Below, piece by piece: positions 14,208 to 18,783 of a stretch of 26,930 nt of DNA. The notes under the pieces are model-generated. The model was given only the letters and a program-made list of their open reading frames with translations. It was not told where the DNA came from and made no database searches. Numbering within the stretch: position 1 is the first letter of the stretch; each line of letters starts with the position of its first letter. The stretch covers positions 1-26,930 of the forward strand of contig DASXPW010000259.1 of assembly GCA_036493385.1 (NCBI GenBank), read 5' to 3'. Source of the DNA: Pyrinomonadaceae bacterium (lineage in GTDB: Bacteria > Acidobacteriota > Blastocatellia > Pyrinomonadales > Pyrinomonadaceae). A program made the position numbers and the translations under genes.

Positions 14208-15806
14208 ATGAACTTCGGCTTCGTTATCGACAATCGGAAATGCATAGGCTGTCACGCCTGCACCGTTGCCTGCAAGGCCGAGCATGAAGTCCCCGTCGGC
14301 GTTAACCGCACTTGGGTCAAGTATATCGAAAAGGGAACCTTTCCCGACACGCGGCGCTTGTTTTCCGTGATGCGGTGTAATCATTGTGCCGACGCTCCAT
14401 GCGTCGAGATCTGTCCGGTCACGGCACTCTTTACCCGCAAGGACGGGATCGTCGACTTCGACAATCGGCGCTGCATCGGCTGCAAATCCTGCACGCAGGC
14501 GTGTCCGTACGACGCGCTTTACATGGAGCCTGAGACTGAGACCGCTGCGAAATGCAATTACTGTACGCACCGCGTCGATATCGGCCTCGAACCAGCCTGC
14601 GTAAATGTTTGCCCTGAACATGCCATTGTCTCTGGCGATATGGACAACCCGAATACCGAGATCTCGCGGCTGCTCGCCCGCGAAACCGTCTCGGTCCGCA
14701 AACCTGAAAAGGGAACCAGACCAAAACTTTTCTATATCGACGGCGACCGCGCATCGCTCGACCCGACGGCGGCCAATCCAGACACCGATTACATGTGGTC
14801 AAGTCAGTCATCCGGCGTCGGTCACTTCGCTGGTCGGAACGCGGACGCCCTCGTCCGCATCGAGCGAAGCGAGAGAATATCCGCCGAATCCGAAGAGGCC
14901 GGCCATTTTCGCCGCGCGGCGGCGTTGCGGACAGGAGTGTCCGCGATCCAGCCGCGTCGTGTCTACGACGCCCCATCGAAAGGCGTCCTTTGGGGATGGG
15001 AAGTTTCTGCGTATGTCTGGACGAAGGCTATTGCCGCAGGCGCATTTCTGGTTCCGGTGATCGGCGGCTATTTCGTGGACCTGTCGTACCAAATGAAACA
15101 GTTCGGCGCGTGGGTAGCAGTCATTTTTCTCGCGATAACCGGCATTTTACTGATCAAGGATCTCGGCCGGCCCGACAGGTTCCTATATGTATTGCTGAGG
15201 CCGCAATGGCGATCATGGCTGACCCGCGGCGCGTACGTGATCACGATTTACGGCGCTCTGCTCACTGTTTGGATCGTCGCAAATTATCTCGCTCGCGACA
15301 CGCTGCTCGCTTACATCGAGCCGGTCGGTATTGTTTTCGCATTGCTGTCCGCGGTCTATACAGCGTTTCTGTTTGCACAGGCGAAAGGCCGCGACTTTTG
15401 GCAGAGCCCCGTGCTCGGCCTGCATATGATCATCCATTCGTTGATGGCGGGCTTCGCAGTGTACTTGATCGGCGATCTATGGTTAAAGCCGAATCTGGGG
15501 ATCGGTATCGTATTCGGTTTTTTGACCTCGGCGATGATAGTGATCAACCTGATCACTCATGTCGTTGAGCTTTCGACAACGCACGCGACCGAAGATGCTC
15601 ACAAGACCGTCTCGATGATCACGCGGGGCAGATTTAGCTATCAATTCTGGCTCGGAGTGATTCTGGCCGGGAATCTTGTTCCGCTTCTACTGCTCATGAT
15701 AGGCCAGTCAGGCAGCGCGGCGATTTCGGGCCTGCTGATACTGATAGGTCTGTTTGTCGGTGAGCGGATCTGGGTCCGCGCGCCGCAGTTGATTCCGTTG
15801 AGCTAA
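14208..15806 (+). CDS. 4x[4Fe-4S] electron-transfer subunit fused to an NrfD/PsrC-type membrane anchor
   Basis: CIGCHACTVAC, CNHCADAPCVEICP, CIGCKSCTQACP and KCNYC..PACVNVCP, then WGWEVSAYVWTKAIAAG and about 8 TM helices including DLGRPDRF. Confidence 0.9.
   Translation: MNFGFVIDNRKCIGCHACTVACKAEHEVPVGVNRTWVKYIEKGTFPDTRRLFSVMRCNHCADAPCVEICPVTALFTRKDGIVDFDNRRCIGCKSCTQACPYDALYMEPETETAAKCNYCTHRVDIGLEPACVNVCPEHAIVSGDMDNPNTEISRLLARETVSVRKPEKGTRPKLFYIDGDRASLDPTAANPDTDYMWSSQSSGVGHFAGRNADALVRIERSERISAESEEAGHFRRAAALRTGVSAIQPRRVYDAPSKGVLWGWEVSAYVWTKAIAAGAFLVPVIGGYFVDLSYQMKQFGAWVAVIFLAITGILLIKDLGRPDRFLYVLLRPQWRSWLTRGAYVITIYGALLTVWIVANYLARDTLLAYIEPVGIVFALLSAVYTAFLFAQAKGRDFWQSPVLGLHMIIHSLMAGFAVYLIGDLWLKPNLGIGIVFGFLTSAMIVINLITHVVELSTTHATEDAHKTVSMITRGRFSYQFWLGVILAGNLVPLLLLMIGQSGSAAISGLLILIGLFVGERIWVRAPQLIPLS
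14836..14949. repeat. REP/BIME-like inverted pair of palindromes inside the coding linker
   Basis: GGAACGCGGACGCCCTCGTCCGCA (14836-14859) and TGCGGACAGGAGTGTCCGCGATCC (14926-14949) are inverted copies (19/24). Each is a GCGGAC-N6-GTCCGC hairpin. The span is 114 bp, or 38 codons. Confidence 0.75.
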
Positions 15807-15807
15807 T

Positions 15808-18783
15808 ATGGCATCTCACAAGCCCTCATTTATTGAATCGATCGCCGAGAAACTCCGGCTTATTCCAAATCTTCACGTCGGCAACAATGCCGCTCTCCCG
15901 CCAATTACTGAACCTGGCGATCTGACAGACTATCCCCCGCCTGAAAAATGGGACGATTGGGTCGAATACGAAGCCAAGAGCGGTCAGCGGCGCGAAAAGA
16001 AAAGCTACATGATCGTCCCGACGACCTGCTTTAATTGCGAAGCCGGCTGCGGGCTGCTTAGCTATATCGACAAAGAGACGTTCACAGTCCGCAAATTTGA
16101 GGGCAATCCGTATCATCCGGGCAGCCGCGGCCGTAATTGCGCCAAAGGTCCCGCGACGATCAATCAGATAAATGACACGGACCGCATACTCTATCCGCTA
16201 AAACGAAAAGGAAAACGCGGCGGCGGCGAGTGGGAGCGTGTGACATGGGACGAAGTGCTGGACGATATCGCGGCCAAGATCCGCACGGCGCTAAAAGAAG
16301 ACCGCCGAAACGAGGTCGTCTACCACGTCGGCCGTCCGGGTCACGAGGGTTTTATGGACCGCATATTGCAGTCCTGGGGCGTCGACGGTCACAACAGTCA
16401 CACGAACATCTGCTCGGCAGGAGCGCGTTTTGGGTATGCGATCTGGCAGGGTTACGACAGGCCGTCGCCTGATCACGCCAATGCGGATTTCATCCTGCTG
16501 ATCTCTGCCCATCTTGAGGCCGGCCATTAGTTCAATCCACACGCGCAGCGCAGTATCGAAGGCATGATGAACGGCGCAAAACTCGCCGTCATGGACACGC
16601 GTCTCTCGAATACCGCTTCGATGGCCGATTACTGGATGCCGACCTATCCCGGCAGCGAGGCCGCGGTCTTGCTCGCAATGGCCAACATCATCATCCGCGA
16701 ACGTCTCTTTAACGAAAAATTCCTGCGTGACTGGGTCAACTGGCGCGATGCGCTTCGCAACCTGCAAAGTCAGAACCGCCTGCGTGAGCGGGCGGCCAGT
16801 CCCTCAGCGGCAGAGCCGCAAGTTAAGTGGGACGAGGCTTCGGAAAAGCAGAGCTTTTCCGCAAATAGAGCGGCAGAGCCGCACCAAGGTAGTTTCGACG
16901 ATTTCATCGCCGAAATGGAAGAGTTTTACTCCGAATACACTCCCGAATTTGCCGAGGCCGAGAGCGGCGTTCCGGCTGCGACGATCGTCGATGTTGCAAG
17001 ACGAGTCGGCCGTGCAGGCACGCGCTTCTCATGCCACAATTGGCGTTCCGCCGGCAGCGGCAATCTCGGCGGCTGGGCTGTCGCTCGATGCTTGCATTTT
17101 CTGAGTGTTCTTACGGGCAGCGTCGGCACGGTTGGCGGCACGCTGCCAAGCGCGTGGAACAAATTCAAGCCCGCAAGTTACGACACGCCCCCGGCGCAAA
17201 AGTTCTGGAACGAGCTTCACTTTCCGCTCGAATATCCGCTTGCTCATTACGAGATGAGCTTTCTGCTGCCTCACTTTCTCAAAGAGGGCCGCGGCAAGCT
17301 CGCCGTCTATTTCACGCGTGTCTTCAATCCAGTTTGGACATATCCTGACGGTTTTTCGTGGATCGAGGCGCTATCGGACGAGAGCAAGATCGGTCTGCAC
17401 ATCGCGTTGACACCGACATGGAACGAGACGGCTTATTTTGCCGATTACGTGCTCCCAATGGGCCACTCAAGCGAGCGGCACGACCTAACAAGCTACGAGA
17501 CGCATTCCGGGATGTGGATCTCGTTTCGACAACCTGTACTTCGCGAGGCCGCTAGAAAAATGGGCCGCGAAACGACCTTTACGTACGAGACAAATCCTGG
17601 CGAGGTTTGGGAAGAGGATGAGTTTTGGTTCGAGCTTTCGTGGCGGATCGACCCCGACGGCGATTTAGGAATCCGCAAACATTTCATGTCGCCTTATCGG
17701 CCCGGCGAAAAAATAAGGGTCGACGAGTATTACCAGTACATTTTCGAAAATACGAAAGGGCTGCCTGAAAGGGCCGAGAAAGAGGGCTTGACGCCGCTCG
17801 ATTACATGCGCAAATTCGGCGCCTTCGAGGTCGAAACGGCCGTCTATGAAAAGCACATGGACCTCGCCGGCGAGCAGCAGCTTGCCAACGCAGATATTGA
17901 TGCGGCGACAGGTGAGATCAAGAAAGACGGCAAGACGATCGCCGTCATCGTCGACGGCAAAGCGCGTGTAGGATTTAATACGCCGTCGAGGCGGCAGGAA
18001 TTTTTCTCGGGAACTACCGCCGAATGGGGCTGGCCCGAATACGCGATCCCGACGTACGTTAAAAGTCACATTCACACCGACGAGCTTGATGCGGCGAAAG
18101 GCGAGATCGTGCTGATTCCGACGTTTCGGCTGCCGACGCTTATTCACACGCGGTCGAGCAATGCGAAATGGCTCGCCGAGATCTCAAACCGCAATCCGCT
18201 CTGGATGCACACCTCCGACGCCGAACGTTGGGGGATAAAGACCGGCGATCCGGTTCGCATATCCACTGAGATCGGTTATTTCGTTAACCGCGCCTGGGTC
18301 ACAGAAGGCATGCGTCCCGGCGTCGTCGCCTGCTCCCATCATATCGGCCGATGGCGCCGCGAGCAGGACGCCAAGAATAATCGTTGGGCAACCAATCAGG
18401 TAACCATCGATGAGATCGAGCCGGGCAAATGGAAAATGCGTGTCGTTGAGGGTATCGGTCCATACAGATCCGATGACCCTGACACGTCACGTATTTTCTG
18501 GACCGATGGCGGAGTTCATCAAAACATCACATTTCCGGTCCATCCCGATCCGATCAGCGGAATGCACTGCTGGCATCAGAAAGTCACGGTCGAAAAGGCT
18601 CACGCGGAGGACAAATACGGTGATGTTTTCGTTGATACTGAAAAGTCGTTCGAAGTTTACAAACGGTGGCTCGCTCTAACACGCCCCGGACCGGGCCCAA
18701 ACGGCCTTCGGCGTCCGCTCTGGTTGGGTAGACCTCTGCGGCCCGTGAATGAAGCGTTTTACATAAACGGCGATACGAAATGA
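15808..18783 (+). pseudogene. Molybdopterin (bis-PGD) oxidoreductase catalytic subunit, DMSO-reductase superfamily, interrupted by one in-frame TAG at 16528-16530 (991 codons if read through)
   Basis: The two track ORFs 15808..16530 and 16564..18783 share a frame, and the intervening codons read FNPHAQRSIEG. N-terminal CFNCEAGC..NCAKG Fe-S motif, HNSHTNICS, and C-terminal IPTFRLPTLIHTRS and PDPISGMHCWHQKV. No twin-arginine signal. Confidence 0.85.
16769..16882. repeat. Cluster of four palindromic hairpins in frame inside the Mo-enzyme gene
   Basis: CCGCCTGC-GTGA-GCGGGCGG (16776-16795); GCGGC-AGA-GCCGC twice (16807-16819, 16870-16882); CGGAAAAGC-AGA-GCTTTTCCG (16841-16861). Confidence 0.75.

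What the first reader, a model, noticed from the sequence alone, without database searches (positions are those of the whole stretch)
16769..16882. Stack of four hairpins forms an in-frame insertion of about 35-45 aa in the molybdo-enzyme
Seen: CCGCCTGC-GTGA-GCGGGCGG, then three hairpins that all have an AGA loop closed by GC (GCGGC-AGA-GCCGC twice and the 9-bp CGGAAAAGC-AGA-GCTTTTCCG). They encode an atypical stretch (QSQNRLRERAASPSAAEPQVKWDEASEKQSFSANRAAEPHQ) between the conserved-looking blocks WVNWRDAL and SFDDFIAEM..YTPEFAEAESG. These hairpins differ in sequence from the element at 14836, so at least two repeat families appear to have landed in frame in adjacent genes of one operon. Inference: repeated, nested REP/MITE insertions at a tolerant surface loop. 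The shared GC-AGA-GC loop could be a transposase recognition feature.
Basis: partly seen in the sequence, partly recalled or inferred. Interest (0 to 1): 0.72.

Follow-up and report, generated by a model that had tools for sequence, protein, structure and literature searches.

The report
Mobile hairpin repeats translated inside molybdoenzyme
Two kinds of small mobile hairpin repeats (REP elements) sit in frame in a floppy loop of a molybdenum enzyme gene of a soil acidobacterium and add 36 amino acids; this is a real but already known kind of event, and related species have filled the same loop with other repeats.

Summary
Window 16768-16882 holds four hairpins, in frame, inside a 991-codon Mo-bisPGD (DMSO-reductase superfamily) gene at 15808-18783. 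They are two repeat elements, not four.

- **Family A:** a single REP at 16768-16801. The genome (a Pyrinomonadaceae MAG) has 41 profile hits; 22 lie inside long open frames, 10 of which were scanned and are recognisable genes.
- **Family B:** one 75-nt three-hairpin unit at 16807-16882. It has 12 copies here, and all the others lie between genes or at gene edges. In eight loci of sister species, B units flank REP-associated tyrosine transposase (RAYT) genes in inverted orientation.

Of 80 orthologues from many phyla, 71 have an invariant 23-residue loop at this site. Only Pyrinomonadaceae/Pyrinomonadales carry inserts, each different and all in frame. A tree needs at least 4-5 changes of state.

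AlphaFold2 models the insert as a low-confidence coil between two confident helices.

Caveat: the host gene has an in-frame TAG at an invariant Tyr (16528-16530) that I could not check in reads.

Intragenic REPs are already published (Rickettsia RPEs; Di Nocera 2013). This scan has also noted the same habit in other Pyrinomonadaceae genomes. I class it as a new member of a known kind, of moderate interest.

The parts
15808..18783 (+). Host gene: catalytic subunit of a Mo/W-bisPGD (DMSO-reductase superfamily) oxidoreductase, 991 codons if the TAG is read through
   Evidence: Pfam finds Molybdop_Fe4S4, Molybdopterin and Molydop_binding. All NCBIfam hits are below their cut-offs; the best is PhsA. 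The best structural matches are ArrA 6cz7 and PsrA 2vpw. All 74 orthologues in which a full-length frame could be delimited are single intact ORFs of 910-1016 aa.
16528..16530 (+). In-frame TAG at the position of an invariant Tyr (Y241): a recent nonsense mutation or an assembly error, unresolved
   Evidence: Y241 is invariant in 60 aligned orthologues. Relatives have TAC or TAT here. No public run laid on the window covers the site.
16768..16801 (+). Family A REP singlet (variant with loop GTGA and tail GGCCAG); hairpin at 16776-16795; read as S-QNRLRERAAS
   Evidence: nhmmer hit at E = 8e-8 among 41 hits in the genome. The nearest copy is on C340 in the LeuRS gene, 97% over 37 nt. In this variant the frame usual for family A contains TGA (sequence).
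16807..16882 (+). Family B unit: hairpin 16807-16819, variable spacer, 9-bp hairpin 16841-16861, conserved CAAATAGA at 16862-16869, hairpin 16870-16882; read as AAEPQVKWDEASEKQSFSANRAAEP
   Evidence: 12 copies of about 75 nt in the genome. 30 copies were aligned including those beside RAYT genes. 94.3% of cells pair, against 49% or less when the partners are slid, and each helix has one pair with compensatory change.
14837..14950 (+). Third family (C): an inverted doublet of GCGGAC-N6-GTCCGC hairpins, in frame in the hypervariable linker of the neighbouring FeS::NrfD gene. It is not part of the insert, but the same family fills the molybdoenzyme loop in sister species.
   Evidence: Family-C-type inserts occupy the molybdoenzyme loop in L006/L046, L007, L050 and L052.

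Best explanation
The 115-nt stretch is selfish repeat DNA that landed in the coding sequence and survived because it is in frame, free of stops, and sits in a loop the enzyme can spare.

It has two parts. The first is one arm (a REP singlet) of family A, a REPIN-like family that has recently multiplied in this genome. The second is one unit of family B, a three-hairpin REP cluster. B is the cognate repeat of a REP-associated tyrosine transposase (RAYT, an HUH/Y1 enzyme that acts on hairpins in single-stranded DNA).

Shown:
- the repeat families and their copy numbers;
- inverted B units flanking RAYT genes in sister species;
- the empty site in most orthologues;
- the strong frame bias of intragenic copies;
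- a low-confidence coil in the structure model.

Inferred:
- that the RAYT moved B;
- that an unidentified enzyme moved A;
- that the 36 extra residues form a functionless disordered surface loop;
- that recurrence at this loop in relatives reflects a selection filter (few permissive sites), possibly helped by repeats inserting next to repeats.
For: 1. Repeats. Family A has 41 nhmmer hits. Many form inverted doublets of about 90-110 nt. Family B has 12 copies, often as head-to-head pairs.

2. Intragenic habit. 22 of the 41 A hits lie inside open frames of at least 200 aa with at least 40 aa on each side. Ten of those frames were scanned with Pfam: a class-I tRNA synthetase, PurL, ribonucleotide reductase, LeuRS, NuoL, asparaginase, the MetH activation domain, chorismate synthase, a beta-lactamase-like protein and a PMT_2 glycosyltransferase. 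In at least seven of the ten, the matched domains reach across the repeat or lie on both sides of it.

3. Frame filter. 19 of the 22 are read in one frame per orientation, SEPPAVAGG or PPATAGGSD.

4. Insertion, not ancestry. 71 of 80 orthologues from Acidobacteriota, Calditrichota, KSB1, Bacteroidota, Planctomycetota and other phyla have the 23-residue loop. Eight Pyrinomonadaceae/-ales loci, plus L007 and the window, carry inserts of +17 to +62 aa, all different and all in frame. L037 carries a complete family-A doublet. The tree needs at least 4-5 changes of state, and the empty alleles keep the ancestral NPxxE(I/V)TF motif.

5. Transposase link for B. RAYT (NF047646) scores above its curated cut-off in 18 of 26 genomes of the genus. 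B units flank the gene in inverted orientation in L123, L125, L134, L137, L139, L140, L141 and L142.

6. Structure. In the AlphaFold2 model (mean pLDDT 76.3), residues 333-359 score below 50 and residues 331-362 are coil. They lie between helices 312-330 and 363-373, whose blocks score 88-98.

7. Not an assembly artefact. Independent unitigs match 16771-16870 and 16841-17100 exactly (run X1). A unitig from another study spans 16680-16830 with two differences (run X3).
Against: - The gene has a TAG at an invariant Tyr, so in this genome the insert may sit in a gene that has just died. Tolerance is then shown only by the relatives.
- No RAYT flanked by B was found in the window's own genome, which is 69.7% complete. 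Its one RAYT fragment (C383) is flanked by similar but non-matching hairpins.
- No transposase was linked to family A in 60 Y1-transposase loci.
The evidence is only low pLDDT and coil.
- No target-site duplication or clean excision footprint could be read.
Confidence: 0.85

Rival explanations
1. The loop is a landing pad. One ancient insertion created a REP-bearing allele, and later REPs were targeted to the resident hairpins. The variety seen today would then be turnover inside one old filled allele rather than many independent hits.
For: - Two families lie 5 nt apart in the window.
- Sister pairs carry different families at the same site: L048 versus L052, and L049 versus L050.
- Filled alleles share flank changes: FENFI becomes F(E/D)(D/E)FI in 8 of 10 filled orthologues and 0 of 22 empty ones.
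Against: - The empty alleles L038 and L040 are nested among filled ones and keep the ancestral motif.
- Insertion points and reading phase differ between the window and L037.
- The Ser after the insert uses AGY codons in some sequences and TCN in others.
- The flank correlation rests on only 4 independent pairs and cannot reach significance.
Confidence: 0.3
2. The insert has been put to use: as an mRNA structure that stabilises the transcript or paces translation, or as a protein loop with its own role.
For: The hairpins are very stable (z = -3.9). The stems of family B are kept by compensatory changes. REPs are known to stabilise mRNA when they lie downstream of genes (PMC3733652).
Against: Stem conservation is a property of the family everywhere, so it is explained by transposition. 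The loop holds unrelated sequences of +17 to +62 aa in relatives and nothing in most orthologues. The peptide is modelled as disordered.
Confidence: 0.05
3. The gene is a pseudogene and the insert is part of its decay.
For: There is a TAG at invariant Y241, and the nearby Ile is replaced by Ser.
Against: - There is no frameshift or second stop in 991 codons.
- dN to relatives is 0.097-0.116, the same range as between intact orthologues, with dN/dS about 0.04-0.08, although dS is saturated.
- The insert is exactly in frame and stop-free.
- Intact orthologues carry comparable inserts.
Confidence: 0.25
4. The stretch is an assembly chimera that joined repeat copies.
For: The genome is a fragmented MAG of 440 contigs, and repeats often break or mis-join such assemblies.
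Against: Both flanks are the same gene, in order and in frame. Independent unitigs from two studies cross the junctions.
Confidence: 0.02

Closest known systems
Intragenic REPs and REP dimers (Di Nocera, De Gregorio & Rocco 2013, PMC3733652)
   Same: These are short palindromic repeats that are normally extragenic but are also found in frame inside known genes. They occur as singles, dimers or clusters encoding 20-30 aa, or 43-82 aa for clusters. Several families can coexist in one genome, and they are linked to RAYT genes.
   Different: That survey sorted most REPs by a GTAG or CGTC tag at one end of the stem. Here GTAG lies in the loop of family A, and family B has only NNA loops. Pyrinomonadaceae were not part of what I read in that paper. 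The reuse of one loop by several families across species is not described in the passages I read.
Rickettsia palindromic elements (RPEs; as summarised in PMC10969869 and PMC3733652)
   Same: They are palindromic repeats inserted in frame in many unrelated housekeeping genes. Each family yields a characteristic peptide, and the host proteins are thought to remain functional.
   Different: The sequences are unrelated. RPE-1 elements are about 150 bp, against 34 and 75 nt here. The host is a free-living soil acidobacterium rather than an obligate intracellular parasite. An associated RAYT is evident for one of the families here.
REPIN-RAYT systems / REPtrons (Bertels & Rainey 2011, PMC3116915; Nunvar et al.)
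   Same: Inverted REP doublets occur (family A doublets, family B head-to-head pairs). A RAYT gene is flanked by its own repeats in inverted orientation.
   Different: The B unit is a three-hairpin cluster rather than a single REP. Several RAYT copies occur per genome, up to 7 matches, whereas RAYTs are described as typically single-copy. Half of the family-A copies are intragenic, while classic REPINs are extragenic.

Membership tests
REP / REPIN elements with RAYT (for family B) | Short repeated palindrome with conserved stems, dispersed in many copies | tested here: met
   There are 12 copies in a 70%-complete genome. 94.3% of cells pair, and each helix has a compensatory change.
REP / REPIN elements with RAYT (for family B) | Copies flank a RAYT gene in inverted orientation (REPtron) | tested here: met
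   Met in eight loci from genomes of the same genus, where NF047646 scores above its cut-off. Not shown in the window's own incomplete genome.
REP / REPIN elements with RAYT (for family B) | Predominantly extragenic location | tested here: met
   11 of 12 copies lie between genes or at gene edges; the window copy is the exception.
REP / REPIN elements with RAYT (for family B) | Conserved GTAG or CGTC tetranucleotide at one end of the stem-loop (Di Nocera classes) | tested here: not met
   The consensus has no fixed GTAG or CGTC beside a stem. Some loops read GTA-G, but this varies.
REP / REPIN elements with RAYT (for family B) | RAYT binds and cleaves the repeat | not testable with these tools
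   Needs biochemistry.
REP / REPIN elements (for family A) | Repeated palindrome, often as inverted doublets that can fold into a long hairpin | tested here: met
   41 hits, with doublets on C246, C177, C346, C308 and C340 and in L037.
REP / REPIN elements (for family A) | Association with a RAYT or other Y1 transposase gene | tested here: not met
   No family-A hit was found in 30 RAYT loci or in 30 IS200-like Y1 loci of the genus. The sampling is limited.
MITE (cut-down insertion sequence) | Terminal inverted repeats plus target-site duplication | tested here: inconclusive
   Family A doublets have inverted ends. No duplication could be read at the window or at L037 against empty alleles, because the flanks are too diverged.
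Rickettsia palindromic elements | Sequence membership in RPE families 1-10 | not tested
   No RPE sequences were compared. The host phylum and unit sizes differ, so the resemblance is treated as functional only.
Mo/W-bisPGD (DMSO reductase) superfamily (host gene) | N-terminal Fe4S4 Cys motif, molybdopterin and dinucleotide-binding domains, matching fold | tested here: met
   (Foldseek E = 3e-39 to ArrA). No NCBIfam equivalog cut-off is reached, so the substrate is unassigned.

The most novel reading that the evidence does not exclude
In Pyrinomonadaceae, REP elements would be a regular source of protein-loop variation. A few permissive loops, this one among them, would act as self-renewing landing pads where repeats of different families insert next to or into resident hairpins, turn over, and perhaps spread between species by recombination of 'filled' alleles. 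The flank changes shared by filled alleles (FENFI to FEDFI/FDDFI) would be the trace of this.
Probability: 0.25. Interest if true: 0.6.

Novelty: new member of a known kind. Interest (0 to 1): 0.35.

Why it matters
- **Annotation.** About half of the family-A copies in this genome sit inside long open frames, including essential genes such as tRNA synthetases, PurL, ribonucleotide reductase and NuoL. Gene callers and aligners will report odd 10-40 aa inserts that are really mobile DNA.
- **Protein evolution.** The same loop has been lengthened by 17-62 residues at least four or five times without breaking the gene. This marks it as a natural permissive site in this uncharacterised molybdoenzyme family.
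- **Repeat biology.** The data link a three-hairpin REP unit to a RAYT in Acidobacteriota. They also show a clean selection filter, with one tolerated reading frame per orientation.

None of this changes the known picture of intragenic REPs.

Tried and rejected
- **Reads.** Only Logan contigs were available, and none covers the TAG at 16528-16530, so it stays unverified. No RNA holder was listed.
- **Rfam.** No family matches 16600-17050 apart from one chance hit at E = 0.96.
- **First census.** A census with a 10-mer allowing one mismatch was too loose (293 hits, mostly coding background). I replaced it with profile searches.
- **Family C.** A single-sequence nhmmer search with the whole 114-nt element found only itself. 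The family is recognised only by its GCGGAC-N6-GTCCGC arms (22 regex hits) and by sister-species inserts.
- **Transposase for family A.** Not found beside RAYT or IS200-like Y1 genes.
- **dN/dS.** dS is saturated, so it shows only that there has been no long period of relaxed selection.
- **Surface exposure.** It could not be computed, because model coordinates are not exposed. The Foldseek output gave no per-residue ranges.
- **Flank correlation.** The link between filled alleles and the N-to-D change has only 4 independent pairs.
- **First extraction.** My first extraction of orthologues ignored strand and gave nonsense. It was redone.

Full report
**1. What is there**

The window is contig C259 of a metagenome-assembled genome (2.41 Mb, 440 contigs, 69.7% complete, 54.5% G+C). 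The titles of the nearest orthologue records place it in Pyrinomonadaceae (Acidobacteriota, Blastocatellia).

The four hairpins are exactly as described. They lie in the frame of a 991-codon gene at 15808-18783 that encodes the catalytic subunit of a Mo/W-bisPGD oxidoreductase:
- Pfam finds Fe4S4, molybdopterin and dinucleotide-binding domains.
- The best structural matches are ArrA and PsrA.
- No NCBIfam cut-off is reached, so the substrate is unknown.

As RNA the stretch folds far better than shuffles do (z = -3.9). No Rfam family matches it.

**2. Two elements, not four**

Genome-wide searches resolve the stack into two repeat families.

Family A is at 16768-16801.
- It begins GTCAGAACCGCC and carries one imperfect hairpin.
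- A profile finds 41 copies in the genome. Many are inverted doublets of 90-110 nt, which is REPIN-like.
- A strict family-A pattern occurs 13 times here, 0-4 times in 24 congeneric species, and not at all in the 16 genomes of 13 other genera searched. This points to a recent burst in this lineage.

Family B is at 16807-16882.
- It is a 75-nt unit: a GCGGC/GCCGC hairpin, about 21 variable bases, the 9-bp CGGAAAAGC/GCTTTTCCG hairpin, CAAATAGA, and a second GCGGC/GCCGC hairpin.
- The genome has 12 copies, often as head-to-head pairs.
- Across 30 copies the stems are conserved and the loops read NNA; AGA is only one of many versions.
- On 14 aligned copies, 94.3% of cells pair, against 49% or less when the partners are slid. 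Each helix has one pair with compensatory changes. The structure tested was taken from the window copy, which favours it somewhat.

**3. It is an insertion**

I recovered 80 orthologues from Acidobacteriota, Calditrichota, KSB1, Bacteroidota, Planctomycetota and other phyla.
- 71 have an invariant-length 23-residue segment, WVNW..L....P....TFENFI.
- One (L057) is unreadable at this point.
- Eight, all Pyrinomonadaceae or Pyrinomonadales, carry inserts of +17 to +62 aa. A ninth insert is in L007, which came from the relatives search.

The window has +36 aa. Every insert is different and every one is in frame.
- L037 holds a complete family-A doublet, but in a different reading phase from the window's copy.
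- L046/L006, L007, L050 and L052 hold doublets of the GCGGAC-N6-GTCCGC family. That is the family sitting at 14837-14950 in the window's neighbouring FeS::NrfD gene.

A tree of the enzyme, with the loop columns removed, needs at least 4-5 changes of state. The empty alleles nested among filled ones keep the ancestral NPxxE(I/V)TF motif, so they are not secondary losses.

**4. A genome-wide habit with a frame filter**

Of the 41 family-A copies, 22 lie inside open frames of at least 200 aa with at least 40 aa on each side. Pfam on ten of these frames identifies ordinary genes: a class-I tRNA synthetase, PurL (three copies of the repeat), ribonucleotide reductase, LeuRS (two copies), NuoL, asparaginase, the MetH activation domain, chorismate synthase, a beta-lactamase-like protein and a glycosyltransferase. 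In at least seven of the ten the matched domains reach across the repeat or lie on both sides of it.

Nineteen of the 22 are read in one frame per orientation, giving SEPPAVAGG or PPATAGGSD. One of the other two frames in each orientation contains a stop codon; the remaining one is open but Cys/Arg/Trp-rich in the forward orientation (and the sequence).

The window copy is a loop variant (GTGA instead of GGTA). In this variant the usual frame contains TGA, which explains the atypical peptide QNRLRERAAS. Family B is otherwise extragenic, and the window copy is the only clearly internal one.

**5. How it moves**

RAYT genes (NCBIfam NF047646) score above the curated cut-off in 18 of 26 genomes of the genus, with up to seven matches per genome.
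- In eight of the 30 fetched loci, B units lie on both sides of the RAYT gene in inverted orientation, which is the REPtron layout.
- This tally includes the unpublished genome G023. None of the eight loci comes from it.
- The window's own genome has only a truncated RAYT on C383 (46 bits, cut by the contig end). It is flanked by similar hairpins that do not match the B profile.
- Family A was found beside neither RAYT nor IS200-like Y1 genes, so its mobilising enzyme is unknown.

That RAYTs act on hairpins in single-stranded DNA is established knowledge for E. coli TnpA-REP. It is inferred here, not shown.

**6. Structure**

I built an AlphaFold2 model from 60 orthologues (mean pLDDT 76.3, pTM 0.79). 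Residues 333-359 score below 50, and residues 331-362 are coil. They lie between helices 312-330 and 363-373, and the neighbouring blocks score 88-98. This fits a disordered loop. I could not compute exposure.

**7. Is the host gene alive?**

An in-frame TAG at 16528-16530 replaces a Tyr that is invariant in 60 orthologues. Relatives have TAC or TAT there.
- All 74 orthologues in which a full-length frame could be delimited are intact.
- dN from the window gene to relatives (0.097-0.116) is in the range seen between intact pairs, so any inactivation is recent (dS is saturated).
- No public run covers the site.
- The insert itself is supported by independent unitigs: 16771-16870 and 16841-17100 match exactly in run X1, and 16680-16830 matches with two differences in a run from another study.

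**8. Comparison and novelty**

REPs inside genes are published: Rickettsia RPEs, Opitutus terrae, and Thauera clusters encoding 43-82 aa (PMC3733652, PMC10969869).

Earlier notes of this scan, unchecked by me beyond what is reported here, describe the same habit in other Pyrinomonadaceae genomes, including reuse of the same loops. So the scan found this before on other DNA.

Specific to this locus are:
- the juxtaposition of two families;
- the translation of a RAYT-linked three-hairpin unit;
- the well-sampled evidence that one loop of a conserved enzyme was filled repeatedly.

**9. Open point**

Filled alleles share a flank change: FENFI becomes F(E/D)(D/E)FI in 8 of 10 filled orthologues and in 0 of 22 empty ones. 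This could mean shared ancestry or recombination of filled alleles (the landing-pad model), or it could be compensatory change. With only four independent contrasts it cannot be tested here.

Noticed in passing
window 16528-16554: In-frame TAG at invariant Tyr241 of the molybdoenzyme, with the nearby conserved Ile replaced by Ser. Relatives read TAC or TAT. No public run covers the site.
   Followed up: partly
window 14837-14950: An inverted doublet of GCGGAC-N6-GTCCGC hairpins lies in frame in the linker of the FeS::NrfD fusion gene. That linker varies greatly in length in all orthologues. The sister species L046 seems to carry the orthologous element.
   Followed up: partly
G000 contigs C177, C346, C202, C340, C328, C39, C188, C377, C108: Family-A REPs lie in frame in a class-I tRNA synthetase, PurL (three copies), ribonucleotide reductase, LeuRS (two copies), NuoL, asparaginase, MetH, chorismate synthase, a beta-lactamase-like protein and a glycosyltransferase. 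Nearly all read SEPPAVAGG or PPATAGGSD.
   Followed up: partly
G000:C366:1641-1672: The exact 14-mer CAGAACCGCCTGCG lies inside a 384-aa open frame and is read QNRLRE, the same unusual frame as in the window. It may be a decayed copy of the same variant.
   Followed up: no
L117-L120, L129-L131, L138 (RAYT loci of congeners): Several RAYT-domain matches lie in open frames of 700-1100 aa, far longer than a RAYT of about 150-200 aa. This could be a fusion, or stop-free repeat-rich flanks.
   Followed up: no
Molybdoenzyme loop flanks in L037, L039, L041, L046, L007, L049, L050 and the window: Alleles with an insert have FEDFI, FDDFI or FDEFI where all 22 empty alleles have N at the third position (FENFI and similar).
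   Followed up: partly
G000:C334:1-300: An IS200-like Y1 transposase N-terminus at the contig end is preceded by three hairpins, one ending in GGCCAG like the window's family-A variant. A family-B unit lies 1.1 kb away at 1257-1329.
   Followed up: partly
L062 (Cytophagia MAG): The match to the enzyme spans 3315 nt instead of about 2130, so there is a large extra segment elsewhere in that orthologue. The open frame I delimited in this locus was only 932 aa, so the extra DNA may not be translated in one frame with the enzyme.
   Followed up: no
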